Part shown: positions 1-23,814 of the stretch, piece by piece
Position numbering within the stretch: position 1 is the stretch's first letter
How the letters are laid out: every line of letters begins with the position of its first letter
Source: Gloeobacteraceae cyanobacterium SOY_34_metabat_159
Lineage (GTDB): Bacteria; Cyanobacteriota; Cyanobacteriia; Gloeobacterales; Gloeobacteraceae
NCBI GenBank assembly: GCA_031399965.1
Contig: JANNPH010000071.1
Location: forward strand, 1 to 30,530
Direction of reading: 5' to 3'
DNA: 30,530 nt
Program-made: the position numbers and the translations under genes
The notes under the pieces: generated by a model
Seen by the model: only the letters and a program-made list of their open reading frames with translations
Told to the model about the DNA's origin: nothing
Databases searched by the model: none

Positions 1-2709
1 CTCGATCCGGTAGCCGCGAATTTTTGCCTGGCCGTCCGTGCGGCCCACGAACTCGATTGCCCCGTCCGCCCCGAAGCGCGCCAGGTCGCCGCTGCGGTAC
101 AGCCGTGCTCCCGGTTGCTCACTGTAAGGGTGCGGCACGAATTTCTCGGCCGTCAGACCGGCACGACCCAGGTAACCCCGCGCCAGTCCAGGACCGCCCA
201 GGTACAGCTCCCCGGCTACCCCGATGGGCACCGGCTGACCATTGCTGTCCAGGATATAGCTCTGGGCATTGGGGAGTGGGCGGCCGATCGGCAGGCCCTG
301 GGAGGCCGTGTCGATGCGGGCGGTGGCCGATAATTCGTGCATCGTCGCAGAAGCCGTGGCCTCGGTCGGGCCGTAGCTGTTGATTACGCGCGGGTGCAGG
401 CCCAGGTGCGACCGCCATAGCCGCAACCGCTCCGCGAGGGCCTGTTCGCCGCCGATCACCACCAGGCGCAACGACGGCGGGAAGCGGTGCCGTTCGCTGC
501 CCAGGTGGTTGGTCAATTCGTGCCAGTAGGCCGTCGGCAGGTTCAAGACGCTCAGCCGCCAGTCGCGGCATTTCTGCCAGAAACTTTGCGCCGACTGCAG
601 CATCGCTTCTGAGCGCAGCACCAGGGTCGCGCCGCTGGTGATGGTGGGGTAAATTTCCTCGGCGCTGTGGTCAAAGCTAATGGACACGAACTGCAGCACC
701 CGGTCTGCGGGCGTCAGTGCAAATTTCGCCCGAATTGACGCGATGTGGTTGACGACCGAGCGGTGCTGGGTCAGCACGCCCTTGGGCCTGCCCGTCGAGC
801 CGGAAGTGTAGATGACGTAAGCCAGGTGGTCGGCAGTCGTCACTGTGGGTAGATTCTCCGCGTCCCCAGGCGCGGCAAATTCTTCTAGAAAGAGCACCGG
901 CGTCCCGGTAGGCGGCAGGAGGGTTGGGGCCAGGTGGGCCTGGGTGAGTAGCACCGACACCTGGGCGTCCGCGAGGATAAACGCCAGCCGCTCGGCGGGA
1001 TAGGCCGGGTCGAGGGGCACGTAAGCCCCGCCCGCCTTCAAGACCGCGAGCATGGCGATCACGATCAGGGGCGAGCGCTCCACGCACAGCCCGACCAGTG
1101 TCTCAGCCCCGACGCCCAGTGCCCGCAGGCGGTGGGCGAGCCGGTTGGCCCGGACGTTCAGCTCCCGGTAGCTCAATTGCTCGTCTTCGTAGACGAGCGC
1201 CGTGGCGTCGGGGGTGAACGCCGCCTGTTGCTCGAAAAGGATGTGCAGGCAGGTATCCGGGTAGGGACTGGCAGTCGCGTTCAATTCGACCAGCACCAGT
1301 TGCCGTTCGGCCTCGGCCAGGAGCGGCAAGCGCGAGAGCTGCGCCTGCGGGCAATCGACGATCCCGGCAATCAGCGTCTGGAAGTGGCCGGCCAGGCGGG
1401 CAATCGTCTCCGACTCAAAGAGGTCTGTGTTGTATTCGAAGAAGCCGACCAGCCGCTGGTCGTACTCGTACAGCGACAGGCTCAAATCGAGTTTCGCCGT
1501 GCCGTTGTGGGCATCGAGGAGCGACAGGGCCGCCTCCGACGCAGCCTCCGGTCCGAGGAAGTTCTGCATGTCGAAGCCGACCTGGAAGAGCAGGTTGCGG
1601 CTCGCGTCCGGTTCCAGCCGCAGGGCCTTGACGAGCTTTTCAAAGGGCAGATCCTGGTGCTCGTAGGCTTCCAGGCTCACCTCGCGCGTGTTCGTGAGCA
1701 ACTCACTAAAACTGACATCCCCCGACAGGTCGAGGCGGATTGGAATCGTGTTGGAAAAAGGACCGATGAGCCCCCAGAAATCGCTGTTTTCACGGTTGGC
1801 GAAATTGGTGCCGATTACCAGGTCGGTGTCGCCGCTGTAGCGGTGGAGCAAGACACCGAAGGCCGCCATTAGCGCCATGAAGGGTGTCGCCCCGGCGCGC
1901 TGGGCAAGTGCCTTGAGCGCTGCTGTCACCGGCTGCGACAATTCCAGCGGCTGGCTTGCTCCCCGGAAAGTCTGGATGGCCGGGCGCGGGCGATCGGTCG
2001 GTAGGGCCAGGGAGCACGGTGCCCCCTGCAGGCGCGCTTTCCAGTAGGCCAGGTGGGTTTCGAGGGCCTCGCCCCGGACGCGTTCGTGCTGCCAGCGCAC
2101 GAAGTCAAGATACTGTGCCGGCCGCCCGGTAGAAGGCGGATAGCCGTCCGCGTCGTAGACCTTGCTCAGTTCGCGCAGGAGCACTCCTGTGGACCAGCCG
2201 TCGAAGACGATGTGGTGGACGACCACGATCAGCACGTAGCGCACTTCCCCCAGGCGCAGCAGGTGGGCGCGCAGGAGCGGGGCGCAGGCGAGGTCGAAGG
2301 GGATCTGAGCCTGGGCCTGGGCCAGCCTTTGCACCTGGGTTTTCCAGTCGGCCTCCAGTTGGTTTCGCAGATCTGTGGTCGATAGCGCCACCGTGAGAGC
2401 AGGTACCACCGTCTGCATGGGTTGTGCACCGACGAGCTCGAAAGTCGACCGCAGCACCTGATGGCGTTGCAGGACGGCGTTGAGGGAGCGCTCCAGCCGC
2501 TTGGGACAGACCTCGGCGTTGACGCAAAAGATCAGCGGTATGTTGAACGCGGTGCTCTCGGGGTCCAGTTGCTGCAAGAACCAGAGGCGTTGCTGGCTGG
2601 AGGACAGGGCCGATTGCTTCGGCTCCGCTGCTTTCTCGCGCAGTAGCTGTGCCAGGGCCAGCCGTTTTTGTTCGCTCGTGAGGCGGTTCGGATCGATATT
2701 CGTAGTCAT
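1..2709 (-). CDS. Non-ribosomal peptide synthetase, N-terminal part (condensation domain then adenylation domain); the 3' end lies beyond the left window edge
   Basis: This ORF is absent from the supplied track because no stop codon lies in the window. My own translation of the minus strand from ATG 2709 is open through base 1 (903 codons, frame checked). The C-domain core is VHHIVFDGWS (about 2190-2225). The A-domain cores are LAYVIYTSGSTGRPKG (about 781-830), NSYGPTEAT, GELYLGGPGLARGY, YRSGDLAR, and GRTDGQAKIRGYRIE at bases 1-45. Confidence 0.9.
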   Translation of the reverse strand, partial: MTTNIDPNRLTSEQKRLALAQLLREKAAEPKQSALSSSQQRLWFLQQLDPESTAFNIPLIFCVNAEVCPKRLERSLNAVLQRHQVLRSTFELVGAQPMQTVVPALTVALSTTDLRNQLEADWKTQVQRLAQAQAQIPFDLACAPLLRAHLLRLGEVRYVLIVVVHHIVFDGWSTGVLLRELSKVYDADGYPPSTGRPAQYLDFVRWQHERVRGEALETHLAYWKARLQGAPCSLALPTDRPRPAIQTFRGASQPLELSQPVTAALKALAQRAGATPFMALMAAFGVLLHRYSGDTDLVIGTNFANRENSDFWGLIGPFSNTIPIRLDLSGDVSFSELLTNTREVSLEAYEHQDLPFEKLVKALRLEPDASRNLLFQVGFDMQNFLGPEAASEAALSLLDAHNGTAKLDLSLSLYEYDQRLVGFFEYNTDLFESETIARLAGHFQTLIAGIVDCPQAQLSRLPLLAEAERQLVLVELNATASPYPDTCLHILFEQQAAFTPDATALVYEDEQLSYRELNVRANRLAHRLRALGVGAETLVGLCVERSPLIVIAMLAVLKAGGAYVPLDPAYPAERLAFILADAQVSVLLTQAHLAPTLLPPTGTPVLFLEEFAAPGDAENLPTVTTADHLAYVIYTSGSTGRPKGVLTQHRSVVNHIASIRAKFALTPADRVLQFVSISFDHSAEEIYPTITSGATLVLRSEAMLQSAQSFWQKCRDWRLSVLNLPTAYWHELTNHLGSERHRFPPSLRLVVIGGEQALAERLRLWRSHLGLHPRVINSYGPTEATASATMHELSATARIDTASQGLPIGRPLPNAQSYILDSNGQPVPIGVAGELYLGGPGLARGYLGRAGLTAEKFVPHPYSEQPGARLYRSGDLARFGADGAIEFVGRTDGQAKIRGYRIE

Positions 2710-2748
2710 CGCCGGCAAGTCCAGGAGAATGAAAAGTCAGAGTGGGTT

Positions 2749-3501
2749 TCAACCGAGGTGGGGCTGCAGCGCTTCTGCGATTGATTCGAGCAGTAGCGGT
2801 TGCGCCGAGCGCAAGAAGAAGTGATCGCCCGGGAACATCTGGAGACAGAAGCGTTCGCTCGTCTGGCCGCGCCAGGCTTCGAGGCGGTCGCAGCCCACTT
2901 TGCCGTCTTGGAGACCCCCGAAGACCGAGATCGGGCAGGCGAGTGGAGCAGCGTTGCGGTAGAAGTAGGTCTCGTAGAGCGTGAAATCGGCCCGCAACAC
3001 TGGCAGCATCAGTTGCATCAATTCTTCGTTTTGCAACACTTCTTTGGGGATGCCGTTGAGCGCGCAGAGCCTTTTGAGAAAACTGTCGTCGGATAGAGCG
3101 TTCAGCGGCTGTAGTTCGGGAGTCTGGGGGGCACCGGCCGCCGAGGCGAATAGATGCACCGGACCCGGCCCGGATCTGCGCAGGGCGCGGGCCAGCTCAA
3201 AGCCCACGAGGGCACCCATGCTGTGGCCGAAAAAGGCGAAGGGCCGGTCGAGATAGGGCGGCAGGGCGGCGGCAAGCGACGCGACGAGCGCTTTTAGGTC
3301 GCAGCAGGCGGGCTCGTCGAGCCGGTTCTCGCGGCCGGGGTACTGGATTGCACAGACTTCGAGCGTTTCGGGCAACCCGGCAGGCCAGGTGCGGAAGACT
3401 GCTGCTCCCGAACCCGCGTAAGGAAAACAAAAAAGACGCAATTTTGCCCTCGGGTTCGGCCGGTGCAGGACGACCCAGGGATCGGTGACGGTTGGTGTCA
3501 T
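2749..3501 (-). CDS. Type II (editing) thioesterase, alpha/beta hydrolase
   Basis: The track ORF is 2749..3531, but its start is a TTG. The first ATG at 3501 gives MTPTVTDPW. Motifs are FCFPYAGSG, the nucleophile elbow GHSMG, and C-terminal GDHFF, typical of discrete TEII proteins in PKS/NRPS clusters. Start choice is uncertain (3501 vs 3531). Confidence 0.85.
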   Translation of the reverse strand: MTPTVTDPWVVLHRPNPRAKLRLFCFPYAGSGAAVFRTWPAGLPETLEVCAIQYPGRENRLDEPACCDLKALVASLAAALPPYLDRPFAFFGHSMGALVGFELARALRRSGPGPVHLFASAAGAPQTPELQPLNALSDDSFLKRLCALNGIPKEVLQNEELMQLMLPVLRADFTLYETYFYRNAAPLACPISVFGGLQDGKVGCDRLEAWRGQTSERFCLQMFPGDHFFLRSAQPLLLESIAEALQPHLG

Positions 3502-3553: not shown

Positions 3554-5188
3554 TCAAGTTCTCTCGCAGGCCGCCGGATATTTTTGCTCGATGATCTTGC
3601 CGCTATCGAGCTTGATGATCTTGTCGGCGACGTCGTAGTAGAGGTCGTCGTGGCTGATCACCAGGACCATCTTTCCGCGGGCTTTCAATTCCGGCAGGAG
3701 TTGCAGGTAGAAAATCTCTTTGAAATAGGGGTCTTGATCGGCGGCCCACTCGTCGAAGACGTAGATGGGCCGGTCTTCGAGGTAGGCCGTCAGGAGCGCC
3801 AGCCGCTTGCGCTGGCCCTGGGACAAATTCGTCGTCGAGAAGACGCCGTCTTTAATCTGGACCTTGCTGGCAAGCTGCAACTTCTGGAGGTAATGCAGTG
3901 CCTGGGCGTCGAGGTCCGGGTTGTGCAGACCGACCAGGCTCTCGAAAAGATAAAAGTCGGAGAAGACGACCGAGAAGTGCTGGCGATAGTCGTCGCGGTT
4001 CTCGTCGTCGATGGGGCGTCCGTCCAGGCGCACTTCCCCGGTGTCGGGAGCATAGAGACCTGTAATCAACTTGACGAGGCTGCTCTTGCCGCTACCGTTG
4101 CCGCCGATGAGAAAAGTAATCTCCCCGGCCTTGCACTGCAGGTCGATCGGGCCGAGGGTGAAGTCGTGGTCCTCCTGCTCAGACCGGTAGGTATAGCGCA
4201 GTTTTTTCAGTTCGAGCGTCCGGCCATTGACCGTGGCCGGTATCGCCTTGTCCTCACGAATCGTCGGCGTCAGCGACAGGCCCAGGGATTCGAGTTTCTC
4301 AAGGGCGATGGTCGCCCGGCGAAACGAAGGGAACGTGCCGACCAGGTACGAGAGGGGGGCGTTCATGTAGATCACGATGAGCGTGAAGCCGGTCAGCACC
4401 TGCGGGTCGAAGCGGCCAAATCCCGGCGCGGCGAACAAAATCAAGCCAATTAACACGAAGTAGAGCGCCTGGCCGTAGCTGTTGGCGAGGGCGAAGATGC
4501 TCTGGCAGGTAAAGGCCAGTTTGCGCATGGTGAGGGCGGTCGGCTGCAGGACGCCCGAGAAGAAAAATTCCCGCCGCTGCCGGTGCAGTCTCAGTTCTTT
4601 GCTGCCGTGAATCAGGGTCTGGTAACCGCCGATCAGCACGTCCCAGGTCTCGCGGGTCGAGACCAGGTAAGTCCGGGCGCGGCGCTCGATGGCTTCGTGG
4701 GTGAGCGTGCCGAGGGCGACGAAGGCGATCAACGCGAGGGCCAGTAGCGGTGAAAGCCAGAGCAAGTAGCCCAGGCAGCAGATGAAAATCGCCAGATTGA
4801 CGCAAAAGAGCGGGAAATCCGCCAGGGTCGTCGTGATCGTGAGCACGTCCTCGGTCAGCGCGGCCAGCAACCGGTTGGAGCCCAGGCCCTCAAGGCGCTG
4901 GAAGGAAGTCGAGAGGATCTGCCGACACAGGTGCAGGCGCATTTCGAGGATGGCCTGGGTCGAGAGGTTCAACAGCAACACCCGCGAGCTGTAGTTGAGC
5001 ACGAGGACGAGGGCGGTGACAGCAAAGAAAGTGACGATGCTGGCGGTGGTGGCCGGTCCCGTACCCGCGAGCTCCCGGTTGATGAGCGCGACGAGCGAGG
5101 CACTGGCCAGACCGCTGCTCACCCCGGCCAGGATGGCAAAGGCGGTCGTGGTCTTCGAGAAGCGGAGCAAAAACAAAAGCATCTTCAT
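3554..5188 (-). CDS. ABC exporter, fused TMD-NBD, cyclic-peptide (SyrD/YojI-like) transporter family
   Basis: The track ORF 3554..5869 overlaps the PKS 3' end with an Arg/Pro-rich extension that is not credible. In-frame ATG 5188 (MKMLLFLLRF..., AAGGA about 10 nt upstream) starts the hydrophobic TMD. Motifs are Walker A GGNGSGKSS, signature LSQGQRKRL, and Walker B IYVFDEWAADQDP. Confidence 0.9.
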   Translation of the reverse strand: MKMLLFLLRFSKTTTAFAILAGVSSGLASASLVALINRELAGTGPATTASIVTFFAVTALVLVLNYSSRVLLLNLSTQAILEMRLHLCRQILSTSFQRLEGLGSNRLLAALTEDVLTITTTLADFPLFCVNLAIFICCLGYLLWLSPLLALALIAFVALGTLTHEAIERRARTYLVSTRETWDVLIGGYQTLIHGSKELRLHRQRREFFFSGVLQPTALTMRKLAFTCQSIFALANSYGQALYFVLIGLILFAAPGFGRFDPQVLTGFTLIVIYMNAPLSYLVGTFPSFRRATIALEKLESLGLSLTPTIREDKAIPATVNGRTLELKKLRYTYRSEQEDHDFTLGPIDLQCKAGEITFLIGGNGSGKSSLVKLITGLYAPDTGEVRLDGRPIDDENRDDYRQHFSVVFSDFYLFESLVGLHNPDLDAQALHYLQKLQLASKVQIKDGVFSTTNLSQGQRKRLALLTAYLEDRPIYVFDEWAADQDPYFKEIFYLQLLPELKARGKMVLVISHDDLYYDVADKIIKLDSGKIIEQKYPAACERT

Positions 5189-11697: not shown

Positions 11698-11728
11698 CAA
11701 AAAATGCCGACGCCCAGCCGGGTGTCGG
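11698..11728 (-). terminator. Putative intrinsic terminator or attenuator between the MbtH-like gene and the PKS
   Basis: Read on the minus strand, the sequence is CCGAC-A-CCC GGCT GGG-C-GTCGG (11728..11707) followed by CATTTTTTG (T-run at 11703..11698). The stem is 5+3 bp with one mismatch, followed by a 6-U tract. Confidence 0.35.
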
Positions 11729-11785
11729 ACACGACAGTTCCCGACGGGCAGGCCCGTGCCGGGAACTGGAAAGCCAGTGGTCTTT

Positions 11786-12829: not shown

Positions 12830-12833
12830 AGGG

Positions 12834-14107: not shown

Positions 14108-14138
14108 CGTGACTCTCCAGATAGGTTTGGTGACAGGT

Positions 14139-15392: not shown

Positions 15393-15435
15393 GGTTTCTC
15401 CGGAAAAATTGAGAGATGGCGTTCGGGGCAGGATT

Positions 15436-16203
15436 TCAGGCTGCACGGGACATCAGGCTGGACCCGCAAGCACTCAGGCGGTCGGGGGTGCCTTTCAGCG
15501 CCTTCAAGCACTGCCCCGTGTGCCCATCCCAGAGGTGCAGCGTGGGTGCCGCCTCGGCGGTATCGGCCGGGCTAAAAGTCAGCAGCAGTTCGTCTGCAGC
15601 CATTTTCCCGGCGTAATTTGCCGCCATGCAGACGGCCTCCGCTACCTGTGCTGCGCTGGGCCGGGTGTGGTCGAGGGGCAAGTCGTGTTTTGAAATCGCC
15701 CGGGTCGCCACGAAAGCAGGAAAAACGGTGCACCGCTGCCCGGCTGCCGTCCACGGGGCCTCGGCGGCAAGACGCTGGGCTGCGTAGTAACCGCTACCCA
15801 GAGCCGGCGGAGAGCTGACGGTGGGCGCAACGGCGACCAGCATCCCGGCCGGTCCGACCGCCTCGAAGGCCCGCATCACGGCGAGTTCTGCCGGTGAATA
15901 GAGCACCTGCATCGAGGCAACGACCCGGTCGGCTACGGTGGCATCCACCCGCAAATCGAACGACTGAGACAGCGTGTAGCAGGGAGCGTCGAGACCGAGG
16001 CACACCACCGCGGCCCCAGCCTGCAAGCAGCGCTCGGCGGTCTGGGTGAGGGTTGCCGCCCGTGCTGCGAGCAGTACCAGGTCATACCCTTCTTCAGCCA
16101 GGGCCAGGGCGATTGCGCCACCGACGATGCCGTCGGCACCTGCCACCAGGGCGACCATTGCCTGCGCTTTTTCTGCCGCACTCTGTGTCGTTCTTTCTGC
16201 CAT
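15436..16203 (-). CDS. Atypical NAD(P)-binding Rossmann/SDR-like protein with a WD40-repeat-like C-terminal tail
   Basis: A 255-aa ORF with GAGG 10 nt upstream of ATG 16203. It has a GxxGxxG-type dinucleotide fold (LVAGADGIVGGAIALALAEEGYDLVLLAAR) and YYAAQR in the place of the SDR YxxxK motif. The last 45 aa or so resemble a WD40 unit (see findings). Confidence 0.6.
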   Translation of the reverse strand: MAERTTQSAAEKAQAMVALVAGADGIVGGAIALALAEEGYDLVLLAARAATLTQTAERCLQAGAAVVCLGLDAPCYTLSQSFDLRVDATVADRVVASMQVLYSPAELAVMRAFEAVGPAGMLVAVAPTVSSPPALGSGYYAAQRLAAEAPWTAAGQRCTVFPAFVATRAISKHDLPLDHTRPSAAQVAEAVCMAANYAGKMAADELLLTFSPADTAEAAPTLHLWDGHTGQCLKALKGTPDRLSACGSSLMSRAA

Positions 16204-16496: not shown

Positions 16497-16832
16497 GTGG
16501 TTTCACCTTCTAAACAACGCAAGCGCGGCGTCATCCTGACGCCCGAAGGCTACCGGCGTCTGCAAGAAGCCAGGCGTCAGATCGAGCGCCAGGAAAACCT
16601 GGGTGGGCGCTATTCCCTTGAAAACTTGAGCGAGCGCACCGGCCTCGCACCCCGGACCGTCACCCGCGTGCTGGCCTGCGCGGAGGGCGTCGACAAGCAA
16701 ACCCTGGAGCAATTGTTCTGGGGTTTCAGCCTGGAGCTGACCCGGCGCGATTACACCAGCGTCGGAGCAAGACCTGCCGTCCCGGAGCCTGCTGTGCCGT
16801 CCCGGAGCCTGCTGTGCCGGATACGCGCTTGA
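16497..16832 (+). CDS. N-terminal helix-turn-helix fragment of the split STAND (NB-ARC/WD40) gene; possibly a pseudogene piece
   Basis: The start is GTG 16497. The sequence [73 protein letters not shown] matches the HTH module that normally forms the N-terminus of cyanobacterial NTPase-WD40/TPR proteins. The ORF ends at 16830-16832, out of frame, immediately after the 20-bp duplication. Confidence 0.7.
   Translation: [111 protein letters not shown]
16775..16819. repeat. 20-bp perfect tandem duplication (2.25 copies) of TGCCGTCCCGGAGCCTGCTG
   Basis: Unit 1 is 16775-16794. Unit 2 is 16795-16814 and is identical. A partial third copy, TGCCG, occupies 16815-16819. Confidence 0.95.
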
Positions 16833-19800
16833 ATCTGGGTGACGCCCCGGACGTGTCCGCTTTCCATGGCCGTACAGAAGAACTGGCGCTCTTGAAGGGC
16901 TGGCTTCTGGAGGACAACTGCCGACTGGTGGCCCTGGTGGGCATGGGCGGCGTCGGCAAGACTTCCCTTGCTCTAAAGTTGTGCGAGCAGGTCCAGGGAT
17001 CCTTTGAGTACGTGATCTGGCGGTCGCTGCGCAACGCGCCGCCCGCCCAGGACCTGTTGGCCGAGAGCATCCGTTTTTTCTCGGCCGGCGTTCAGAGCGA
17101 TCTGCCGCCGGGCCGCTCCAGCGAGCGCATCCTGCTGTTGCTCGATCACCTGCGCCGACACCGCTGCTTGATCGTGCTCGACAATGCAGAAACGGTGCTG
17201 GGTGGCCAGGGTTCGAGCGGCTACCACGAGGGCTTCGCAGACTACAGCGAGCTGCTGCGCTGCATCGGCAGCACCACCCACCGCAGTTGCCTGGTCCTGA
17301 CCAGCCGCGAGAAGCCCCAGGAAGTGGCCGTGAGCGAAGGGCGGACCCAGCCGGTCCGCTCGCTTCTGGTGGGCGGTTTACCGGCGGAGTTCGGCCAGAA
17401 GATTTTGCTTGAAAAAGACCTGCGTTCACCGAGCGACGAGGCGGCGCGCGCCCTGGTCCAGCACTACTCGGGCAATCCTCTCGCGCTCAAGATGGCGGCA
17501 AGCACGATCCAGGATCTCTTCGCGGGCAGCATCTCCGACTTTATGGCCCAGGGCACGACTATCTTCGGTGAAATTCGTAACCTGCTCGATCAGCAGTTCA
17601 ACCGGCTCTCCGAAATCGAGCGCGAAATCGCCTACTGGCTTGCCATCAACCGCGAGCCAGCTTCTCAAGCGCAGTTGCGCGAAGACCTGCTCTCGCCCGT
17701 CTCCAAACTGCGGCTGCTCGAAGCGCTCGAATCCCTCGGGCGGCGCTCCCTGACCGAGTCGCAGTCCACCCGATTTACGCTACAGCCCGTCGCCCTGGAA
17801 TATTTGACCGGGCGGTTGGTAGAACAAGTCTACGAAGAACTGGTCTGTAGCCGGCTGGTGCTCCTGAAGAGCCACGCCCTGCTCAAGCCCCAGGGCACGG
17901 AGTACATCCAGGGTATGCAGGTCCGCTTTATCCTGGCACCCCTGCTCGAACAATTAATGGCCACTTTCGGCGGCAAAGAAGCGGCCGTACAACACCTCAG
18001 CCGTCTGCTGCCGGTCCTGCGGCAGGACGGCACGGAGCCCGGCTACGCCGCAGGCAACTTGTTTAATCTGCTGCGCCGCCTGGGTGCCGATTTGAGCGGC
18101 TGCGACTTTTCCAACTTGAGCGTCTGGCAGGCCGACCTGCGCGGTGCCGATTTGCATCGCCTCAATTTTTCCGGCGCCAACCTGGCGAAGTCGGTGTTCA
18201 CCGAGGCGGTGGGCAACGTCACCTCCCTCGCCTTCAGTCCCGACGGCAGGCTGCTCGCCACGGGCGATGCGGGCAGCGTCGTCCGGCTGTGGCAGGTGGC
18301 CGACGGCAAGCAACTGGCCCTCTGCGAGGGCCACACGAGTTGGGTATGGGCGGTCGCCTTCAGCCCCGACGGCAACTTGATCGCGAGCGGCAGCATGGAT
18401 CAGACCGTCAAATTGTGGGATGCCCGCACCTGCGAATGCCTCAAGACCCTGCGCGGCCACGTCGGCCGCGTGCTGACAGTCGCCTTCAGTCCTGACGGGC
18501 GCACCCTGCTGAGCGCTGGCGACGACCAGGTAATCCGGCTCTGGGACGTCAGTTCGGGCGAGCCCGGTTTGCACCTGTCGGGCCACAACCGCTGCGTTTC
18601 CTCCGCCGGCTTCAGCCCCGACGGCAGCTTGATTGCCAGCGGCAGCATGGACCGCACCGTGCGCCTCTGGGACACTTCCGGTCAGTGCCTCAAGACGCTC
18701 GCGGGCCACGACCACTGCGTTTTTTCAGTCGCCTTCGCCCCGGATGGCCTGACTATCGCGAGTGCCAGCCAGGACGAGACGATCAAACTCTGGCAGGTGG
18801 CAACCGGCGAATGCAGGGGCACCCTGCGCGGCCACACCAGCGTCGTCCACTCGCTGAGCTTCAGCCCCGACGGCCTGACCATCGCCAGTGCCAGTCAAGA
18901 CGAGACGATCAAACTCTGGCAGGTCAACTCTCTCCAGTGCCAGGGCACCCTGCGCGGCCACGAAGGCTGGGTGTGGGCAGTCGCCTTCAGTCCCGACGGC
19001 GAGACGATTGCCAGCGGCTGCGCCGCCCGGTCGGTGCGCTTCTGGGACACCAGGGCCGGGATCTGCCGCATCGCCCTGCAGGGACACGCCAACTTGATGT
19101 TCTCGGTGGCCTTTGCCCCCGACGGCCGTACGCTCGCAAGCAGCAGTTCCGACCGGCGGGTTTACCTGTGGGATGTCGAAGGCAAAAGCTGCCGGGGTAC
19201 GCTGCGCGGCCACGAGGGTTGGGTACTTTCGGTCGCCACTGCCCCGGACGGCCGCACGCTTGCGAGCACCGGCATGGACCGCACGATCCGGCTCTGGAAT
19301 ACCCGTAGCGGCGCGTGCTCGAAAATTTTGCGCGGCCACGAGGGCTGGGTCTGGTCGGTGGCCTTCAGTCCGGATGGTCAGACCATCGCCAGTGCCAGCA
19401 CCGATCAGACTGTGCGGCTGTGGGATGCGCGCACGGGGCAGTGCTTGCAGGTCCTGCGCGGCCACAGCGACTGGGTGTGCACGGTCAACTTCAGCCCCGA
19501 CGGCCGCCTGGTGGCAAGCGGCAGCCAGGACGGCACGACCCGACTCTGGCAGACCGATACCGGCGATTGCCTGCATACTCTCTCAGGAGAAGGTGGCAGC
19601 GTGCGGGCGGTGAGCTTCAGCCCGACTGCGCCGCTCGTTGCCTGTGTCGGCGACGAGCGCACCGTCCGCATCTGGGACATCCAGGCTGAAAGCTGGCTCC
19701 ATGTCCTGGAGGGCCACACCAACGGGATCTGGGCTGCTGCCTTTGCTCCGGATGGGCAAACGCTTGCCACCGCCGGTGCCGACCGGACAATCCGGCTGTG

Positions 19801-20098
19801 GGATGTGAAAGCGGGCTGCAACCTGCGCGTTCTGGAGGGCCACACCAATCTGGTCTTCGACATCACCTTCAGCCCGGACGGAAGCCTGATGGCAAGCGGC
19901 AGCCAGGACGAGACGGTCAAACTCTGGCAACCCGACGGCACCTGCGACACCCTGGTAGCGACCAAACCTTACGAAGGGATGAACATCGCCGGCGTCCTGG
20001 GGTTGACCAGGGCTCAGAAGCTCACCCTCAAAGCGCTGGGAGCGGTAGAGATGTTCGCTGAGGACCCCAGTCAGACCCGGCCAGACTCGGGTACTTAG
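16814..20098 (+). CDS. STAND NTPase (NB-ARC/AP-ATPase type) with pentapeptide repeats and 14 WD40 repeats
   Basis: A 1094-aa ORF starting at GTG 16814, inside duplication copy 2.
- NB-ARC motifs: P-loop GMGGVGKT (16940-16963), Walker B [17 protein letters not shown], and the GLPL-like GNPLALKM
- Pentapeptide repeats: [34 protein letters not shown] (about 18083-18200)
- WD40: 14 units of about 42 aa, of the form (A/S)FSPDG...LWD....C...L.GH. Confidence 0.9.
   Translation: [1094 protein letters not shown]
18209..19935 (+). repeat. Intragenic array of 14 WD40 coding repeats (126-nt period), enough for two 7-bladed propellers
   Basis: I counted 14 SPDG/APDG/SPTA blades in the translation. Units 5 and 6 are near-identical at DNA level: 18746-18798 vs 18872-18924, 49 of 53 nt, with a 26-nt exact run. 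Confidence 0.9.
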
Positions 20099-20208: not shown

Positions 20209-20718
20209 ATGTTCACACTGCCCGACATGCCACAGGATAGGGCGTTGCTGGAGTTGGCGGACCGGTTCTCTGAATCGGAAGCGACTTCTTTGAGAGCTTT
20301 CCTCGCCTTCCTGCACGTATCTGCTGAGACTTACGAAGCCTACAACGTCCACTTTGCCCGCTACGGCCTCTCGGACGGCCGCTTCAGCCTGTTGATTTTT
20401 CTACTCACCGAGCGCGAGCGGGTGCTGACGCCCTCCGATTGCGCCGAGCGGCTGGGCGTCACCCGCGCGACCGTCACGGGGTTGCTCGACGGTCTGGAGC
20501 GCGAAGGGTTGATCAGAAGGGAGCCGCGCCCTGGGGATGGACGGATGTTGGCGGTACGCCTGACCGAACAGGGTCAAAAACTGCTCGAAGGCATGCTGCC
20601 GGACCATTTTCGGCGGATCACGGCCTTCACTTCCCACCTCACCGAAATCGAAAAAATGCTGCTGATCTCGCTCATTGTCAGGCTGCGGGCCGGGCTGCTC
20701 GCCTTGAGCGAACGTTAA
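20209..20718 (+). CDS. MarR-family transcriptional regulator
   Basis: A 169-aa ORF. The winged-helix core is LTPSDCAERLGVTRATVTGLLDGLEREGLIRREPRPGDGRMLAVRLTEQGQKLL. Confidence 0.9.
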   Translation: MFTLPDMPQDRALLELADRFSESEATSLRAFLAFLHVSAETYEAYNVHFARYGLSDGRFSLLIFLLTERERVLTPSDCAERLGVTRATVTGLLDGLEREGLIRREPRPGDGRMLAVRLTEQGQKLLEGMLPDHFRRITAFTSHLTEIEKMLLISLIVRLRAGLLALSER

Positions 20719-20860: not shown

Positions 20861-20883
20861 TACTATATGTTTAGGCGCCTAAC
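20861..20883 (+). promoter_or_regulatory. Putative promoter/operator of the ACP-KS-CLF operon
   Basis: TACTATAT (a -10-like element, 20861-20868) is preceded by the A/T tract AAAATAAAATTTTTATTAG. The perfect 12-bp palindrome TTAGGCGCCTAA lies at 20871-20882. CCTAAC at 20878-20883 sits at the same 9-nt distance from TATAT as in the MarR promoter. Confidence 0.4.
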
Positions 20884-21093: not shown

Positions 21094-21363
21094 ATGAACC
21101 TCAACAGCATTGCTCATGTCCTCGACCAGATGCACATCTCGTTTGCAGAGTTGACCGTCGATTCGAAGCTCAAGGCGGATGTTGGGATGGATTCGCTGGA
21201 ACTGGTCGACTTCGAGTGCTTTTTTGAAGAACTATTTGATATCCGTCTCGACTGGGAGACCATGCAGGCCGACCCGTCGGTGCAGGAAGTGCTCGACCAG
21301 GCCCTCTCAAAACTGAGTGCAGGGGCAGTCCAGACCCAATACCGCCACTCCGTGGCTGCTTAG
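21094..21363 (+). CDS. Discrete acyl carrier protein
   Basis: An 89-aa acidic ORF with GGAG 7 nt upstream of the ATG. The phosphopantetheine attachment motif is VGMDSLELVD, with Ser34 at 21193-21195. Confidence 0.85.
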   Translation: MNLNSIAHVLDQMHISFAELTVDSKLKADVGMDSLELVDFECFFEELFDIRLDWETMQADPSVQEVLDQALSKLSAGAVQTQYRHSVAA

Positions 21364-21398
21364 CTACCACTGATCTCAACTGCAAGAGGGCTTATTTC

Positions 21399-22646
21399 AT
21401 GAAAATCAGGCGAGTCGTAGTCACCGGCATGGGAACCATCAATCCGATTGGTGACAACTTGAAAGACTTCTGGTCCAACTGTTGCCGTGGAACCTCAGGA
21501 GTGCAGCCGATTTCGGCGTTCGAGATTCCAGACGGGCAGAGTAAGATTGCCGGCCTTGTCAAAGACGGTGGCCCAATGGCCGCGCCGGTGGACCGCAGCT
21601 ACCACTTCACCCTGGCCTGTGCTGCAGAAGCGCTGCAAATGGCCGGCCTCGACGACGGGCAAGCCGCGCAGAACCTGGACCCAGAGCGCTGCGGCGTCTT
21701 TCTCGGCACCTCCACAGCGCAACTGGGCAGCATGGAACAGGAGTATCTCAATCGAACCGGCACCCCTGCTCAACCCAATCCGCTGAGTGCACCGGACACT
21801 TTTCACTTCAATACCGTCGCCAGGCTCCTGGCCGGGCACTTTAATTTCCAGGGCGGGTACGCGACGCTTTCCACCGCCTGCGCCAGTGCGCTCGATGCCA
21901 TCGGCTACGCCGTGGATGCGATCCGCTACGGGGACGTCGATGTGGCGATTACCGGGGCGTCCGAGGCACCGATTACCCCTTTGATGGTGGCCAGTTTCGC
22001 CAAGATTGGGGCCACCTCCCTGCGCAACTCTGAACCCCAGAAGGCGAGCCGTCCTTTCGACCAGGACCGCGACGGCTTTGTGCTCGCCGAGGGCTGCGGC
22101 ATCCTCGTCCTAGAAGCGCTTGAACACGCCCTCGCACGCGGTGCCCAAATCTACGCAGAACTGCCCGGCCATGCGAGCACCAATAGCTACCACCACATGA
22201 CCGGCATTCCCAAAGACGGCGCGAGCATCGCCCGCTCTGCACTGCTGGCACTCGCAGATGCCGGACTCAAGCCCGCCGACATCGACGCCATCTATGCCCA
22301 CGGCTCCTCCACCCCGGCAAACGACCTCGCGGAGTCAAATGCCTTTCATCAATTGCTTCAGGAGCGGGCCTGCACCGTGCCGGTCACCTCTCTCAAGTCG
22401 CAATACGGCAATCCGCTCTCGGCGTCGAGCAGCATCGAGGTGATCGCGGCGGTGATGTCCATCAACACAGGGCTCATCCCACCCACCATCAATCTGGAGC
22501 GACAAGACCCGCTAATTAAGCTCGATGTCGTTGCACCCGAGGCCCGACAGACTCCGGTGCGCTGCGTGCTGAAGACCGGCAGCGGTTTTTCCGGAATCCA
22601 CTCAAGTTTGATCATTCGCCAATACGAGGGGGCAGCTCATGTATAA
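21399..22646 (+). CDS. Discrete beta-ketoacyl synthase (FabF/KS-alpha-like) with an atypical Cys-His-Asn active site
   Basis: A 415-aa ORF. The start RRVVVTGMGTINPIG is FabF-like. The nucleophile is in LSTACASALDA (Cys161, 21879-21881). The first His is in YAHGSSTP. At the second His position, KSQYGNPLSASS carries Asn338 (22410-22412). PPTINL is conserved. Confidence 0.9.
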   Translation: MKIRRVVVTGMGTINPIGDNLKDFWSNCCRGTSGVQPISAFEIPDGQSKIAGLVKDGGPMAAPVDRSYHFTLACAAEALQMAGLDDGQAAQNLDPERCGVFLGTSTAQLGSMEQEYLNRTGTPAQPNPLSAPDTFHFNTVARLLAGHFNFQGGYATLSTACASALDAIGYAVDAIRYGDVDVAITGASEAPITPLMVASFAKIGATSLRNSEPQKASRPFDQDRDGFVLAEGCGILVLEALEHALARGAQIYAELPGHASTNSYHHMTGIPKDGASIARSALLALADAGLKPADIDAIYAHGSSTPANDLAESNAFHQLLQERACTVPVTSLKSQYGNPLSASSSIEVIAAVMSINTGLIPPTINLERQDPLIKLDVVAPEARQTPVRCVLKTGSGFSGIHSSLIIRQYEGAAHV

Positions 22647-23814
22647 CCACCAACCCTGCGCAATCACCGGAGCCGGCTTTGCAACGCCGATGGGCAACGA
22701 CCCAGATGCGCTCTGGAACACCTTGAAGCAAGGCAAGCCTCTGTTTGACGCCTTCGCACCCCAGCTAAACGGCCCGACCTACCAGGTCGCCCGCGTCCAT
22801 GACAGCACTCTCGACCACCGACTACCCAGTCGGCAGTTGCGCAAGCTCGACCGCTTCACGATCCTGGCGTTGGCGGCCTCGCACCAGGCACTCGCCAGTT
22901 GCGGCCTCGAAATTAGCGACAGCAATCGCGATCGGATCGGCATCTACCTCGGCAACAGCACCGGCGGCTGGGGTTTTGTGGAGCCAATCCTGGAAGCGGT
23001 CTACGCGACCCAGATGCGGACAGCCAGTCCTTACGCAGTCACCGCCTGGTTTCCCTCGGCTCCCCAGGGTGAGATTTCGATCCTCTACAAAATTGGCGGC
23101 TTCAGCAAAACCATCGCCGCCGACCGGATCAGTGCCGGGCTGGCCCTGGAGCAGGCCGTCCGCAAAATTGACACGGGCTCCATGGATGCGATGCTCGTCG
23201 GCGGTGCCGAATCTCCCTTCAGCGGCCTGTTGTTAAACGCCTACCAGGCAAGCGGACACTCCTCAAGCAGCGGACAATACCGGCCCTTCAGCCGTGCGGC
23301 GGACGGTAGCCTGCTCGGTGAAGGGGCAGCTCTATTTGTCGTGGAAGGGGAAGCACAGGCCCGCGCGCGCGGCGCCAATATCCACTGCCGGGTACTGGGC
23401 ATCGGCAAGGGACGCTCTCTAGCCCCGGCCATCTGGAATTGCCTGCGTGCGGCGAACGTACCGCAGGAGGCAATCGACTACGTCGTCCTCGACGGCAGCG
23501 GTCGCCCGGACGCAGACCAGGGCGAGTACCAGGCAATTGCCGAAACCCTCGGCCGCAATCCAAATCTGCGCATGAGCGCACCCAAATCGATGTACGGCGA
23601 CCTCCTGGGTGCCGGCATGGCGGTCGATCTGTTGATCGGCGCATTGAGTCTGGAGCGACAGGCCGTGCTCCCGACCGCGATATCGGGCTTAATCGAAGTG
23701 CCGCCCGTCGGCAAACACGTCCTGGCAGCTGAGTCCTGCCCTCTAGAGTACGTACTCGTAAACGGGCGCGACGAGGCCGGGCAGAGCCTCGTAGTGCTGC
23801 TTGGTCGGGCCTGA
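22639..23814 (+). CDS. Catalytically inactive KS paralogue (KS-beta / chain-length-factor-like partner)
   Basis: A 391-aa ORF. Its ATG overlaps the KS stop (ATGTATAA), and GAGGGGG lies upstream. It has the thiolase/KS fold pattern (CAITGAGFATPMGN, LVGGAES, KSMYGDLLGAG). However, the nucleophile region reads TIAADRISAG with no Cys, and both His positions are Asp (LDGSGRP, YGDLLG). Confidence 0.85.
   Translation: MYNHQPCAITGAGFATPMGNDPDALWNTLKQGKPLFDAFAPQLNGPTYQVARVHDSTLDHRLPSRQLRKLDRFTILALAASHQALASCGLEISDSNRDRIGIYLGNSTGGWGFVEPILEAVYATQMRTASPYAVTAWFPSAPQGEISILYKIGGFSKTIAADRISAGLALEQAVRKIDTGSMDAMLVGGAESPFSGLLLNAYQASGHSSSSGQYRPFSRAADGSLLGEGAALFVVEGEAQARARGANIHCRVLGIGKGRSLAPAIWNCLRAANVPQEAIDYVVLDGSGRPDADQGEYQAIAETLGRNPNLRMSAPKSMYGDLLGAGMAVDLLIGALSLERQAVLPTAISGLIEVPPVGKHVLAAESCPLEYVLVNGRDEAGQSLVVLLGRA

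What the first reader, a model, noticed from the sequence alone, without database searches (positions are those of the whole stretch)
1..23814. Possible three-way hybrid: discrete KS/CLF + ACP supplying the starter for a loader-less type I PKS and a C-domain-first NRPS
The type I PKS (5260-11646) begins directly with its KS about 27 residues from the N-terminus. It has no loading AT/ACP, FAAL or GNAT loader, and no loader gene lies anywhere in the minus-strand run up to 16203. Something else must therefore deliver an acyl starter.

The only other acyl-chain-building machinery in the window is the ACP-KS-CLF cassette about 5 kb away, and a single Sfp-type PPTase and an MbtH-like protein sit between the two.

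In actinobacteria, type II-like KS/CLF pairs are known to build polyene or cinnamoyl acyl-ACP starters for NRPS lines. An analogous arrangement feeding a PKS-NRPS in this organism would be a new architecture.

Two points weigh against this idea. The cassette is on the opposite strand, and it is separated from the cluster by the STAND/WD40 gene.
Basis: inference. Interest (0 to 1): 0.7.

Follow-up and report, generated by a model that had tools for sequence, protein, structure and literature searches.

The report
Lipopeptide cluster beside orphan KS/CLF cassette
A Gloeobacter genomic island carries a lipopeptide assembly line whose first enzyme has lost its usual fatty-acid loader, right next to a stripped-down three-gene polyketide cassette; comparisons suggest they are separate neighbours, not one three-way hybrid, though a link is not excluded.

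Summary
On the minus strand lie a C-domain-first NRPS, a type II thioesterase, a cyclic-peptide exporter, a KS-first type I PKS (KS-AT-DH-ER-KR-ACP), MbtH and an Sfp/HetI-type PPTase. On the plus strand lie a STAND/WD40 gene and MarR-ACP-KS-CLF. The window is from a Gloeobacter; G. morelensis has the same block at about 92.6% DNA identity.

The "loader-less" premise holds. The closest syntenic homologue (a Terriglobia contig with MbtH, PKS, ABC, TEII and NRPS at 47-62% identity) has FAAL-ACP fused in front of the same PKS and no KS/CLF nearby.

The KS/CLF pair belongs to a widespread non-actinobacterial type II PKS family. In 84 loci outside Gloeobacter it never sits beside an NRPS C domain or a type I KR. 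It usually sits with a cyclase.

G. violaceus keeps a paralogous MarR-ACP-KS-CLF cassette but has no detectable orthologue of this PKS. The cassette has no KR or DH, its own regulator, and no operator shared with the PKS unit.

In favour of a link: both units lie on one accessory island whose edge is 16 nt after CLF, both are under purifying selection, and each lacks parts its relatives have.

Best reading: two independent units. I put the three-way hybrid at about 0.13.

The parts
1..2712 (-). NRPS, first module (C-A...). The gene starts at 2712 and runs off the left end of the window.
   Evidence: Pfam Condensation at residues 35-472 and AMP-binding at 493-848; HHIVFDGWS motif. The G. morelensis orthologue is a 2624-aa C-A-T-C-A-T protein followed by a 3576-aa NRPS. 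It is 47% identical to the Terriglobia NRPS.
2749..3501 (-). Type II thioesterase
   Evidence: Pfam Thioesterase, E = 4e-49. The exact protein is on record with the ATG start at 3501. It is 51% identical to the Terriglobia TEII in the same position. dN/dS 0.05.
3554..5188 (-). Cyclic-peptide export ABC transporter (permease fused to ATPase)
   Evidence: NCBIfam TIGR01194 cyc_pep_trnsptr, 486 bits, above the cut-off of 286. It is 56% identical to the Terriglobia ABC in the same position. dN/dS 0.11.
5260..11646 (-). Type I PKS, single module KS-AT-DH-ER(degenerate)-KR-ACP, with no loading domains
   Evidence: Pfam domains. Motifs DTACSS, HGTGT and NIGH in the KS; GHSVG and YAFH in the AT; GLDS in the ACP. 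The ER NADPH motif is DGADTAVG, against HGAGGSVG in the homologue. The N-terminus aligns to the ACP-KS linker of the FAAL-ACP-bearing Terriglobia PKS. dN/dS 0.19.
11700..11745 (-). Terminator-like hairpin with a T-run between MbtH and the PKS (tentative). Homology with G. morelensis restarts here.
   Evidence: Consensus scan hit at 11721-11707 followed by CATTTTTTGA. Fold energy -29.6 kcal/mol, z = -2.05. The blastn alignment begins at 11691. G. morelensis has about 340 extra bp here.
11786..12046 (-). MbtH-like protein
   Evidence: The G. morelensis orthologue is annotated PF03621 MbtH. It is 62% identical to the Terriglobia MbtH.
12056..12829 (-). Sfp/HetI-type phosphopantetheinyl transferase
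   Evidence: Pfam ACPS and AASDHPPT_N. NCBIfam HetI, 222 bits, below the cut-off.
12834..13214 (-). 126-aa Cys-rich ORF of unknown function. It is not an ACP.
   Evidence: No Pfam or NCBIfam match; translation. It is conserved as a called gene in G. morelensis.
13379..15446 (-). ABC ATPase (13379-14107) and HlyD/RND-type adaptor (14139-15395 or -15446). No FtsX/MacB permease is present.
   Evidence: Pfam and NCBIfam RND_mfp. The Terriglobia MacB permease has no tblastn match in the window.
15436..16203 (-). Degenerate SDR-like protein (Rossmann N-terminus only)
   Evidence: Only residues 13-73 match SDR models, far below the cut-offs; sequence. It is the least conserved gene of the block: 83% aa identity, dN/dS 0.26.
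16497..20098 (+). STAND NTPase (NB-ARC, pentapeptide and WD40 repeats). In this window it is split by a frameshift near 16770-16800.
   Evidence: Pfam NB-ARC and WD40. A 23-nt repeat insertion relative to G. morelensis shifts the frame.
20209..20718 (+). MarR-family regulator of the cassette, followed by a 20-bp-stem hairpin at 20741-20781
   Evidence: Pfam MarR_2. A MarR gene also precedes the ACP-KS-CLF genes in the paralogous G. violaceus cassette. Inverted repeat. dN/dS 0.09.
20871..20882 (+). Perfect palindrome TTAGGCGCCTAA upstream of the ACP; candidate MarR operator (inferred)
   Evidence: It is the only exact copy in the window. None lies upstream of the PKS or the SDR-like operon.
21094..21363 (+). 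Discrete ACP of the type II PKS kind
   Evidence: GMDSLE motif. NCBIfam ACP models at 1e-5 to 1e-7, below the cut-offs. It is 32-33% identical to the ACPs of the KS/CLF family clusters (E = 2e-10 to 2e-8) and unrelated to the FAAL-partner ACP of the Terriglobia PKS (E = 0.18).
21399..22646 (+). Ketosynthase (KS-alpha-like) with Cys161, His301 and Lys333 but Asn338 in place of the second catalytic His
   Evidence: Pfam. Best solved relatives are AntD 6smo_B and the actinorhodin KS 1tqy_A, ahead of FabF. Asn338 is found only in this window and G. morelensis among 121 family KS sequences. dN/dS 0.19.
22639..23814 (+). Chain-length-factor-like partner (no active-site Cys or His), overlapping the KS stop by 8 nt
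   Evidence: Alignment A2: Asp at the Cys position, as in the four other family CLFs aligned. dN/dS 0.12.
23815..23830 (.). Right edge of the block shared with G. morelensis (synteny breakpoint)
   Evidence: The blastn alignment ends at 23830. The next genes are TetR, MutS2 and GT2 here but ribF and ndh genes in G. morelensis. The flank genes have no relative at 90% identity or more in other Gloeobacter.

Best explanation
The region is one accessory genomic island of a Gloeobacter species. It carries two neighbouring but independently working biosynthetic units.

Unit A (from before position 1 to about 16203, minus strand) is a cyclic-lipopeptide assembly line.
- A single type I PKS module (KS-AT-DH-KR-ACP with a probably dead ER) extends an acyl starter by one C2 unit. 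It hands the product from its own ACP to the N-terminal C domain of the NRPS. In G. morelensis the NRPS part comprises at least four modules on two proteins (two more are suggested only by protein size).
- A type II thioesterase, a cyclic-peptide ABC exporter, MbtH and an Sfp-type PPTase serve this line.
- This is why the NRPS starts with a C domain. That arrangement is the ordinary PKS-to-NRPS junction.
- The line descends from a type that is primed by a FAAL-ACP didomain fused to the PKS. Here that didomain is missing.
- I infer that the fatty-acyl starter comes from outside the window. It could be a stand-alone FAAL/ACP pair elsewhere (for example beyond the second NRPS gene) or a fatty acyl thioester from primary metabolism.

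Unit B (20209-23814, plus strand) is a MarR-controlled minimal type II PKS (ACP, KS, CLF). It is a second, diverged copy of a four-gene cassette that Gloeobacter also keeps elsewhere. It has lost the cyclases and tailoring enzymes that accompany its relatives in other phyla. It makes its own, still unknown, ACP-bound product.

What is shown: gene content, homologies, synteny, island boundary, purifying selection. What is inferred: the source of the starter, the independence of the two units, and the product classes.
For: - Syntenic homologue: a Terriglobia contig has MbtH, then MacB, then PKS, ABC, TEII and NRPS in the same order. Identities are MbtH 62%, PKS 47% (over 99% of the window PKS), ABC 56%, TEII 51% and NRPS 47%. 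Its PKS carries FAAL-ACP at the N-terminus. No KS/CLF lies in the 10 kb upstream.
- FAALs are known as fused, didomain or stand-alone enzymes, so a trans arrangement is ordinary (PMC11837247).
- The exporter scores above the cut-off for the cyclic-peptide exporter family.
- The four closest KS/CLF relatives outside Gloeobacter with readable context (47-58% KS identity, in Microcystis, Myxococcus, Chlamydiales and Frankia) sit in type II PKS clusters. These contain a radical SAM enzyme, ACP, SRPBCC cyclases, an FAD monooxygenase and a PF04199 cyclase.
- Across 84 family loci, none has an NRPS C domain or a type I KR nearby. Of the 37 loci of at least 10 kb, 32 have the PF04199 cyclase.
- The cassette ACP is homologous to the ACPs of that family, not to a FAAL-partner ACP.
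- A paralogous MarR-ACP-KS-CLF cassette (gll2853 group, 55% KS identity) exists in G. violaceus and G. morelensis. No G. violaceus orthologue of the PKS or of KS1 appears in the searches or in the 90%-identity clusters.
- The cassette is on the opposite strand and has its own regulator, a hairpin after MarR, and a palindromic box not repeated upstream of unit A.
- GC3 of the cassette genes is 0.70-0.75, against 0.73-0.84 for unit A.
- All genes are under purifying selection.
Against: - No loader for unit A was found. I could not read the DNA beyond the second NRPS gene of G. morelensis or search its whole genome.
- The only free-standing ACP on the island is the cassette ACP.
- The cassette and unit A are inherited as one block: 92.6% nt identity to G. 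morelensis and similar dS (0.13-0.23) in both units. The block edge is 16 nt after CLF. The flanking genes have no relative at 90% identity or more in other Gloeobacter.
- Each unit lacks what its relatives have (loader; cyclases and release enzymes), which would fit a merger.
- The cassette ACP has the canonical DSL motif, unlike the DSQ of its relatives. That would suit the neighbouring Sfp-type PPTase.
- One relative (L098) combines a FAAL with ACP-KS-CLF, so this KS/CLF clade can act on fatty-acyl starters.
Confidence: 0.6

Rival explanations
1. Three-way hybrid. The minimal type II PKS has taken over the role of the lost FAAL-ACP loader. KS/CLF builds or extends an acyl chain on the discrete ACP. 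The KS of the type I PKS takes that chain as its starter. The NRPS then adds the peptide.
For: - The PKS has lost the FAAL-ACP that its closest homologue carries, and no remnant remains.
- The cassette ACP is the only free-standing ACP on the island.
- The cassette has lost the cyclases and release enzymes of its relatives, so an ACP-bound product needs an acceptor.
- The two units form one inherited block. They are present together in two genomes and absent together from G. violaceus, and the island edge is right after CLF.
- There is a single Sfp-type PPTase, and the ACP has a canonical DSL motif.
- L098 shows this clade working with a FAAL-loaded ACP.
- The KS has a lineage-specific His338Asn change yet remains under purifying selection.
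Against: - No other member of either family shows the combination: 0 of 84 KS/CLF loci, and not the Terriglobia cluster.
- A bare paralogous MarR-ACP-KS-CLF cassette persists in G. violaceus, which has no detectable orthologue of this PKS.
- There is no KR or DH to turn a poly-beta-keto chain into a stable starter. All known type II-to-NRPS systems have them.
- The cassette is on the opposite strand, separated by a STAND gene, with its own MarR and no shared operator.
- Co-inheritance can be a single island event.
Confidence: 0.13
2. The two units are independent, and the PKS needs no external loader. It primes itself from malonyl-ACP by decarboxylation, or takes acetyl/acyl-CoA directly. It may work iteratively, as the loader-less myxochromide PKS MchA does, before passing a polyketide chain to the C-first NRPS.
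For: - The architecture (a single KS-AT-DH-ER-KR-ACP protein without a loader, followed by NRPS genes) matches the myxochromide arrangement. There MchA is a type I iterative PKS that makes the lipid chain for the NRPSs MchB and MchC (PMC6180311).
- The KS has a complete Cys-His-His set.
- The ER NADPH motif is degenerate, as expected for an unsaturated chain.
- No loader lies in 30 kb here or in the additional G. morelensis sequence read.
Against: - The closest full-length homologue is FAAL-primed, and its KS region aligns closely with this one. This argues for a long-chain acyl starter rather than self-priming.
- Iteration cannot be read from sequence.
Confidence: 0.17
3. One or both units are decaying remnants. 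On this view the PKS lost its loader, the exporter lost its permease, the KS lost a catalytic His and the STAND gene is frameshifted, and no product is made.
For: - The FAAL-ACP is missing.
- The HlyD/ATPase pair has no FtsX/MacB permease.
- The ER and the SDR-like protein are degenerate.
- KS1 carries His338Asn.
- The STAND gene is frameshifted in this window.
Against: - Every biosynthetic ORF is intact in two genomes, with dN/dS of 0.04-0.26 at dS of 0.09-0.39.
- Cys-His-Asn is a working triad in other thiolase-fold condensing enzymes (general knowledge).
Confidence: 0.05

Closest known systems
FAAL-primed hybrid PKS-NRPS lipopeptide lines. The uncharacterised Terriglobia cluster on L095 is the nearest. 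Puwainaphycin, jamaicamide and hapalosin-type initiation are characterised analogues (PMC11837247, PMC4219810).
   Same: The gene order MbtH ... PKS, cyclic-peptide ABC, TEII, C-first NRPS is shared with L095 at 47-62% protein identity. One reducing PKS module extends an acyl starter and passes it to an NRPS C domain.
   Different: The Gloeobacter PKS lacks the N-terminal FAAL-ACP (about 700 aa) and starts in the ACP-KS linker. No stand-alone FAAL/ACP lies upstream. The ER motif is degenerate. The MacB permease is absent.
Non-actinobacterial minimal type II PKSs: AntDEF of Photorhabdus (6SMO), actinorhodin KS/CLF (1TQY), and the Gloeocapsa PCC 7428 gloPKS (PMC11744666). Also the uncharacterised radical-SAM/cyclase type II clusters of Microcystis, Myxococcus, Chlamydiales and Frankia found here.
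   Same: A KS with an active-site Cys, a Cys-less CLF translationally coupled to it, and a discrete ACP. The best solved-structure matches are AntD and the Act KS. KS identity to the Microcystis, Myxococcus and Chlamydiales clusters is 53-58%.
   Different: No cyclase/aromatase, radical SAM enzyme, monooxygenase or starter ligase lies next to it. The KS has Asn instead of the second catalytic His. The CLF has Asp, not Gln, at the Cys position (as do the four other family CLFs aligned). The ACP has DSL where its relatives have DSQ.
Highly reducing type II PKSs that supply cinnamoyl or polyene acyl groups to NRPSs: skyllamycin, WS9326A, atratumycin, and ishigamide Iga11/12 (6KXD) (PMC12532209).
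   Same: A discrete KS/CLF and ACP lie near an NRPS line that begins with a C domain.
   Different: Those clusters universally contain a KR, a DH, an isomerase and a cyclase complex. None is present here. KS1 scores 188 bits against Iga11, compared with 301 against AntD and 278 against FabF. The organism is a cyanobacterium, and the cassette is on the other strand with its own regulator.
Myxochromide synthetase (iterative type I PKS MchA plus NRPSs MchB and MchC; PMC6180311)
   Same: A single loader-less PKS protein is followed by NRPS genes.
   Different: The sequence relationship was not tested here. Whether the Gloeobacter PKS iterates is unknown. Its nearest homologue is FAAL-primed.

Membership tests
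Minimal (aromatic-type) type II PKS | KS-alpha homologue with an active-site Cys, closer to type II PKS KS than to FabF | tested here: met
   Cys161 is conserved. Top PDB hits are AntD at 301 bits and Act KS at 290 bits, above FabF at 278 bits. The protein scores below the FabF equivalog cut-off.
Minimal (aromatic-type) type II PKS | Complete Cys-His-His catalytic set in the KS | tested here: not met
   His301 is present. The second His is Asn338. Of the 121 family KS sequences, 119 have His; only this window and G. morelensis have Asn.
Minimal (aromatic-type) type II PKS | CLF partner that lacks the catalytic Cys and is encoded immediately after the KS | tested here: met
   Alignment A2 shows Asp at the Cys position and both His lost. 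The CLF start overlaps the KS stop by 8 nt.
Minimal (aromatic-type) type II PKS | Gln at the CLF position equivalent to the KS Cys (decarboxylative priming, as in the actinorhodin CLF) | tested here: not met
   The residue is Asp here and in the four other family CLFs aligned. The role of Gln is taken from general knowledge of the actinorhodin system.
Minimal (aromatic-type) type II PKS | Discrete ACP with a phosphopantetheine-attachment Ser | tested here: met
   GMDSLE motif. ACP models match at 1e-5 to 1e-7. The ACP is homologous to the ACPs of family clusters.
Minimal (aromatic-type) type II PKS | Cluster-encoded cyclase/aromatase or ketoreductase that shapes the chain | tested here: not met
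   tblastn finds no match to the family's PF04199 cyclase, SRPBCC cyclases, radical SAM enzyme or FAD monooxygenase in the window or in G. morelensis. By contrast, 32 of 37 relatives of at least 10 kb have the cyclase.
Highly reducing type II PKS feeding an NRPS (cinnamoyl/polyene lipopeptides) | Dedicated KR and DH alongside KS/CLF and ACP | tested here: not met
   No KR or DH lies in or next to the cassette. The only SDR-like ORF is a degenerate protein at the far end of the other operon. The requirement is taken from PMC12532209.
Highly reducing type II PKS feeding an NRPS (cinnamoyl/polyene lipopeptides) | Isomerase and cyclase complex | tested here: not met
   No such Pfam family was found among the window's ORFs scanned.
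Highly reducing type II PKS feeding an NRPS (cinnamoyl/polyene lipopeptides) | KS most similar to polyene-type KS (for example Iga11) | tested here: not met
   Iga11 (6kxd_A) scores 188 bits, below about 40 FabF/FabB structures and far below AntD and Act KS.
Highly reducing type II PKS feeding an NRPS (cinnamoyl/polyene lipopeptides) | Acyl-ACP product is accepted by the assembly line | not testable with these tools
   This needs genetics or biochemistry.
FAAL-primed PKS-NRPS lipopeptide assembly line | Core synteny of PKS, exporter, TEII and C-first NRPS, with MbtH | tested here: met
   The order is the same as in L095, with 47-62% identity for all five proteins.
FAAL-primed PKS-NRPS lipopeptide assembly line | FAAL and its ACP, fused or adjacent | tested here: not met
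   Residues 1-707 of the Terriglobia PKS have no counterpart in the window or in the two G. morelensis loci. The DNA beyond the second NRPS gene could not be read.
Iterative type I PKS plus NRPS (myxochromide type) | Single loader-less reducing PKS protein followed by NRPS genes | tested here: met
   Domain order; precedent from PMC6180311.
Iterative type I PKS plus NRPS (myxochromide type) | Iterative use of the module | not testable with these tools
   This cannot be read from sequence.

The most novel reading that the evidence does not exclude
A minimal type II PKS (discrete ACP, KS with a Cys-His-Asn set, and an Asp-type CLF) has replaced the ancestral FAAL-ACP loading didomain of a type I PKS-NRPS lipopeptide line. 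On this reading, a type II system primes a type I module, which in turn primes an NRPS. I know of no precedent for this wiring (no systematic check was made), and it would be in an early-branching cyanobacterium.
Probability: 0.13. Interest if true: 0.8.

Novelty: new variant of a known kind. Interest (0 to 1): 0.35.

Why it matters
If the two units are independent, as I think most likely, this is a routine pair of uncharacterised gene clusters with two useful details.

- It is a natural example of a FAAL-type lipopeptide line that has shed its fused loader.
- It is a pared-down, MarR-controlled KS/CLF/ACP cassette, present twice in Gloeobacter, whose KS carries a unique His-to-Asn change yet is kept by selection. 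The cassette is a compact system for asking what a type II minimal PKS does without cyclases.

If the units are coupled, the result would show that a type II PKS can substitute for a loading module of a type I/NRPS line. That would be new assembly-line logic and a new handle for engineering lipopeptide tails.

G. morelensis has been isolated and has a complete genome. The question is therefore directly testable.

Tried and rejected
1. I first inferred that G. morelensis lacks the PKS, because its DNA alignment to the window stops at 11691, just upstream of the PKS start. This was wrong. Cluster look-ups and a second locus show the PKS, ABC, TEII and NRPS genes there, with about 340 extra bp and a 118-aa ORF inserted between MbtH and the PKS.

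2. The genome-collection scan with a KS alignment was swamped by FabF-like genes. Only four of the 80 loci returned were true family members, and no Gloeobacter genome was returned. A CLF-motif scan of metagenomes was far more specific.

3. The best NRPS hits (47-52% identity) mostly lie in unrelated FAAL-NRPS clusters. The G. morelensis orthologue was missed, apparently because hits seem limited to about 1.75 times the query length.

4. Extending the window to the left failed. The window is nearly a whole 30,532-bp record, and the only other contig with the TEII gene is 3.7 kb.

5. I looked for FAAL remnants in the window and in the G. morelensis loci. None were found; only A-domain cross-matches appeared.

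6. I looked for a shared MarR-type operator upstream of the PKS or the SDR-like operon. None was found.

7. The SDR-like ORF was considered as a possible KR for the cassette and rejected. Only its Rossmann N-terminus matches SDR models, it has YxxxR instead of YxxxK, and it is the least conserved gene.

8. The 126-aa ORF was considered as a hidden ACP and rejected. It is Cys-rich and has no DSL motif.

9. A literature search for gll2853 and its neighbours found nothing. The G. morelensis genome paper does not discuss secondary metabolism.

10. The promoter and terminator consensus scans were not enriched over shuffles. I therefore treat the terminator after MbtH as tentative.

Full report
**What is in the window**

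ORF listing and Pfam/NCBIfam scans give the map below.

Minus strand, read in the direction of transcription:
- a degenerate SDR-like ORF (16203-15436);
- a HlyD/RND-type adaptor (15446/15395-14139);
- an ABC ATPase (14107-13379);
- a Cys-rich 126-aa ORF with no family match (13214-12834);
- an Sfp/HetI-type PPTase (12829-12056);
- MbtH (12046-11786);
- a type I PKS (11646-5260);
- a cyclic-peptide export ABC transporter (5188-3554; TIGR01194, above its cut-off);
- a type II thioesterase (3501-2749);
- an NRPS that starts at 2712 with a Condensation domain (HHIVFDGWS), then an A domain, and runs off the left end.

Plus strand:
- a STAND NTPase with NB-ARC, pentapeptide and WD40 repeats (16497/16814-20098);
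- MarR (20209-20718);
- ACP (21094-21363, GMDSLE);
- KS (21399-22646);
- CLF (22639-23814).

After these come TetR (minus strand), MutS2, a GT2 glycosyltransferase and others.

In the PKS, the KS begins at residue 27, and the ORF cannot be extended upstream. No loader domain or loader gene lies on the minus-strand run.

**Source and close relative**

KS1 is 95% identical to a G. morelensis protein. A G. morelensis locus aligns to window 11691-23830 at 92.6% nucleotide identity.

I first took the alignment's end at 11691 to mean that G. morelensis lacks the PKS. This was wrong. Exact-sequence cluster look-ups and a second locus show the PKS (2130 aa), ABC, TEII and two NRPS genes there. The NRPS genes encode a 2624-aa C-A-T-C-A-T protein and a 3576-aa protein with further modules. 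About 340 extra bp lie between MbtH and the PKS.

The window is almost a whole 30,532-bp public record. Its left side therefore could not be extended.

**The PKS-NRPS unit**

The PKS has a complete condensing KS (DTACSS, HGTGT, NIGH). It also has an AT (GHSVG, YAFH), a DH (HPLL), a KR and an ACP (GLDS).

Its best full-length homologue is a 2858-aa PKS on a Terriglobia metagenome contig, at 47% identity over 99% of the query. That contig is syntenic. It carries MbtH, a MacB permease, the PKS, an ABC exporter (56%), TEII (51%) and a C-first NRPS (47%) in the same order.

The homologue's PKS begins with a FAAL (AMP-binding plus DIP2-like) and an ACP. The Gloeobacter protein aligns only from the ACP-KS linker onward. 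No FAAL remnant exists in the window or in the G. morelensis loci.

Three conclusions follow.

1. The C-first NRPS needs no special explanation. It receives the chain from the PKS ACP.
2. This kind of line is ancestrally primed by a fatty acyl-AMP ligase.
3. In Gloeobacter that loader really is missing from the PKS and from the 11 kb upstream.

FAALs occur fused, as didomains, or stand-alone (PMC11837247), so a trans loader elsewhere is an ordinary possibility. Loader-less iterative PKS proteins that feed NRPSs are also known, for example myxochromide MchA (PMC6180311).

The ER NADPH motif is degenerate: DGADTAVG against HGAGGSVG in the homologue. The module probably yields a 2-enoyl or 3-hydroxy extension. 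This is an inference.

**The KS/CLF cassette**

KS1's best solved relatives are AntD and the actinorhodin KS-alpha, ahead of FabF. The polyene-type KS Iga11 ranks far lower.

The partner has Asp at the Cys position and lacks both catalytic His residues, as do the four other family CLFs aligned. The ACP is homologous to that family's ACPs and not to a FAAL-partner ACP.

The four closest relatives outside Gloeobacter whose context could be read have 47-58% KS identity (Microcystis, Myxococcus, Chlamydiales, Frankia). They sit in conserved type II PKS clusters with a radical SAM enzyme, ACP, SRPBCC cyclases, an FAD monooxygenase and a PF04199 cyclase.

A CLF-motif scan of metagenomes added 80 more loci. 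Across all 84 loci:
- 0 have an NRPS C domain nearby;
- 0 have a type I KR nearby;
- 1 has a weak AT match (28% identity, Frankia);
- 55 have the PF04199 cyclase, including 32 of the 37 loci of at least 10 kb;
- 8 have an AMP-ligase.

The nearest metagenomic CLF (L098) lies in a cassette of FAAL, a 148-aa ORF, ACP, KS and CLF.

The Gloeobacter cassette has none of these partners. It is preceded by MarR, as is a paralogous cassette (gll2853 group, 55% KS identity) found in G. violaceus and also in G. morelensis.

KS1 has Asn338 in place of the second catalytic His. This substitution is unique to this window and G. morelensis among 121 family KS sequences. Cys161, His301 and Lys333 are invariant.

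The cassette is not decaying. dN/dS against G. morelensis is 0.19 for the ACP, 0.19 for the KS, 0.12 for the CLF and 0.09 for MarR. These values are similar to those of the PKS-NRPS genes, 0.04-0.26.

**Is there a link between the two units?**

Evidence against a link:
- Neither family shows the combination anywhere else.
- G. violaceus keeps a bare paralogous cassette. It has no orthologue of this PKS or of KS1 in the searches or in the 90% clusters. It is about 92.7% ANI to G. morelensis (PMC8691054).
- The known type II-to-NRPS systems all carry a KR, a DH and an isomerase (PMC12532209). These are absent here.
- The cassette is on the other strand behind a STAND gene. It has its own MarR, a 20-bp-stem hairpin after MarR, and a perfect palindrome (TTAGGCGCCTAA, 20871) that has no copy upstream of the PKS or the SDR-like operon.
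- A terminator-like hairpin also separates MbtH from the PKS, but this evidence is weak.
- GC3 of the cassette genes (0.70-0.75) is nearer to that of the flank than to most of the PKS-NRPS genes.

Evidence for a link:
- The two units are one inherited block with similar dS.
- The shared block ends 16 nt after the CLF stop. Beyond it, the window has TetR, MutS2 and GT2, whereas G. morelensis has ribF and ndh genes.
- None of five right-flank proteins has a relative at 90% identity or more in other Gloeobacter, whereas the block's proteins do. The block therefore behaves as an accessory, probably exchanged, island that includes the cassette.
- Each unit lacks what its relatives have.
- The cassette ACP is the only free-standing ACP on the island. 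It has the canonical DSL motif instead of the family's DSQ.

Because the two units are contiguous, their joint presence or absence may reflect a single event. It does not show shared function.

**Verdict**

The proposed three-way hybrid is not supported by comparative evidence, but it is not excluded.

My estimates:
- two independent units: about 0.6, with the starter coming from a trans FAAL/ACP or primary metabolism;
- self-priming or iterative use of the PKS: 0.17;
- the hybrid: 0.13;
- decay: 0.05.

The decisive data are the rest of the G. morelensis cluster and genome (FAAL present or not), the neighbourhood of gll2853, expression data, and a cassette deletion with analysis of the lipopeptide tail.

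Noticed in passing
window 16497-16830 (insertion around 16770-16800): Relative to G. morelensis, the STAND/WD40 gene carries a 23-nt insertion in a short GC-rich tandem repeat (…CCGTCCCGGAGCCTGCTGTG… ×2). The insertion shifts the frame, so the first roughly 90 codons (16497 onward) are in a different frame from the NB-ARC/WD40 body (ORF from 16814). It could be a pseudogene, a slippage-prone switch or an assembly error.
   Followed up: partly
window 22410-22412 (KS1 residue 338): The second catalytic His of the ketosynthase is Asn (KSQYGNPLS). Among 121 family KS sequences, only this window and G. morelensis have the change, yet the gene has dN/dS of 0.19. The effect on decarboxylative condensation is unknown.
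   Followed up: partly
window 23815-30530: The right-flank genes (TetR, MutS2, GT2, an EcsC-like ORF, GNAT) have no protein relative at 90% identity or more in a 15-billion-protein collection that holds the G. morelensis and G. violaceus proteins. The adjacent block is 92.6% identical in DNA to G. morelensis. This suggests the NRPS-to-CLF block was exchanged between fairly divergent Gloeobacter lineages.
   Followed up: partly
window 13379-15446: The HlyD-type adaptor and ABC ATPase have no FtsX/MacB-type permease next to them. The syntenic Terriglobia cluster has an 816-aa MacB permease. The exporter looks incomplete, or it borrows a permease encoded elsewhere.
   Followed up: no
window about 6700-7100 (PKS residues about 1520-1650): The enoylreductase region of the PKS is degenerate. 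The NADPH-binding motif reads DGADTAVG, where the Terriglobia homologue has HGAGGSVG, and Pfam ADH_zinc_N scores below its cut-off.
   Followed up: partly
L098 47-5376 (Baltic Sea metagenome contig): The nearest metagenomic relative of the CLF (45%) and KS (51%) lies in a compact cassette of FAAL, a 148-aa ORF, ACP, KS and CLF, with no cyclase. This is a type II KS/CLF apparently primed by a fatty acyl-AMP ligase.
   Followed up: partly
window 21184-21198 (ACP serine motif): The Gloeobacter cassette ACP has the canonical GMDSL motif. The ACPs of related type II clusters have G(M/L)DSQ. A paper on the Gloeocapsa type II ACP reports that residues flanking the serine decide compatibility with Sfp-type PPTases.
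   Followed up: no
window 20741-20781 and 20871-20882: A 20-bp-stem inverted repeat lies directly after the MarR stop. A perfect 12-bp palindrome, TTAGGCGCCTAA, lies about 210 bp upstream of the ACP start. They are a possible terminator and a possible MarR operator.
   Followed up: partly
window 18300-19950: The WD40 repeats of the STAND gene are similar to each other at DNA level (63-88% identity between repeat copies). An independent short-read assembly breaks inside them, at 17920.
   Followed up: no
L093 1364-1842 (G. morelensis, between MbtH and the PKS): G. morelensis has about 340 bp more than the window between MbtH and the PKS, including a called 118-aa ORF on the opposite strand with no Pfam match. 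Homology to the window resumes at the hairpin after MbtH.
   Followed up: partly
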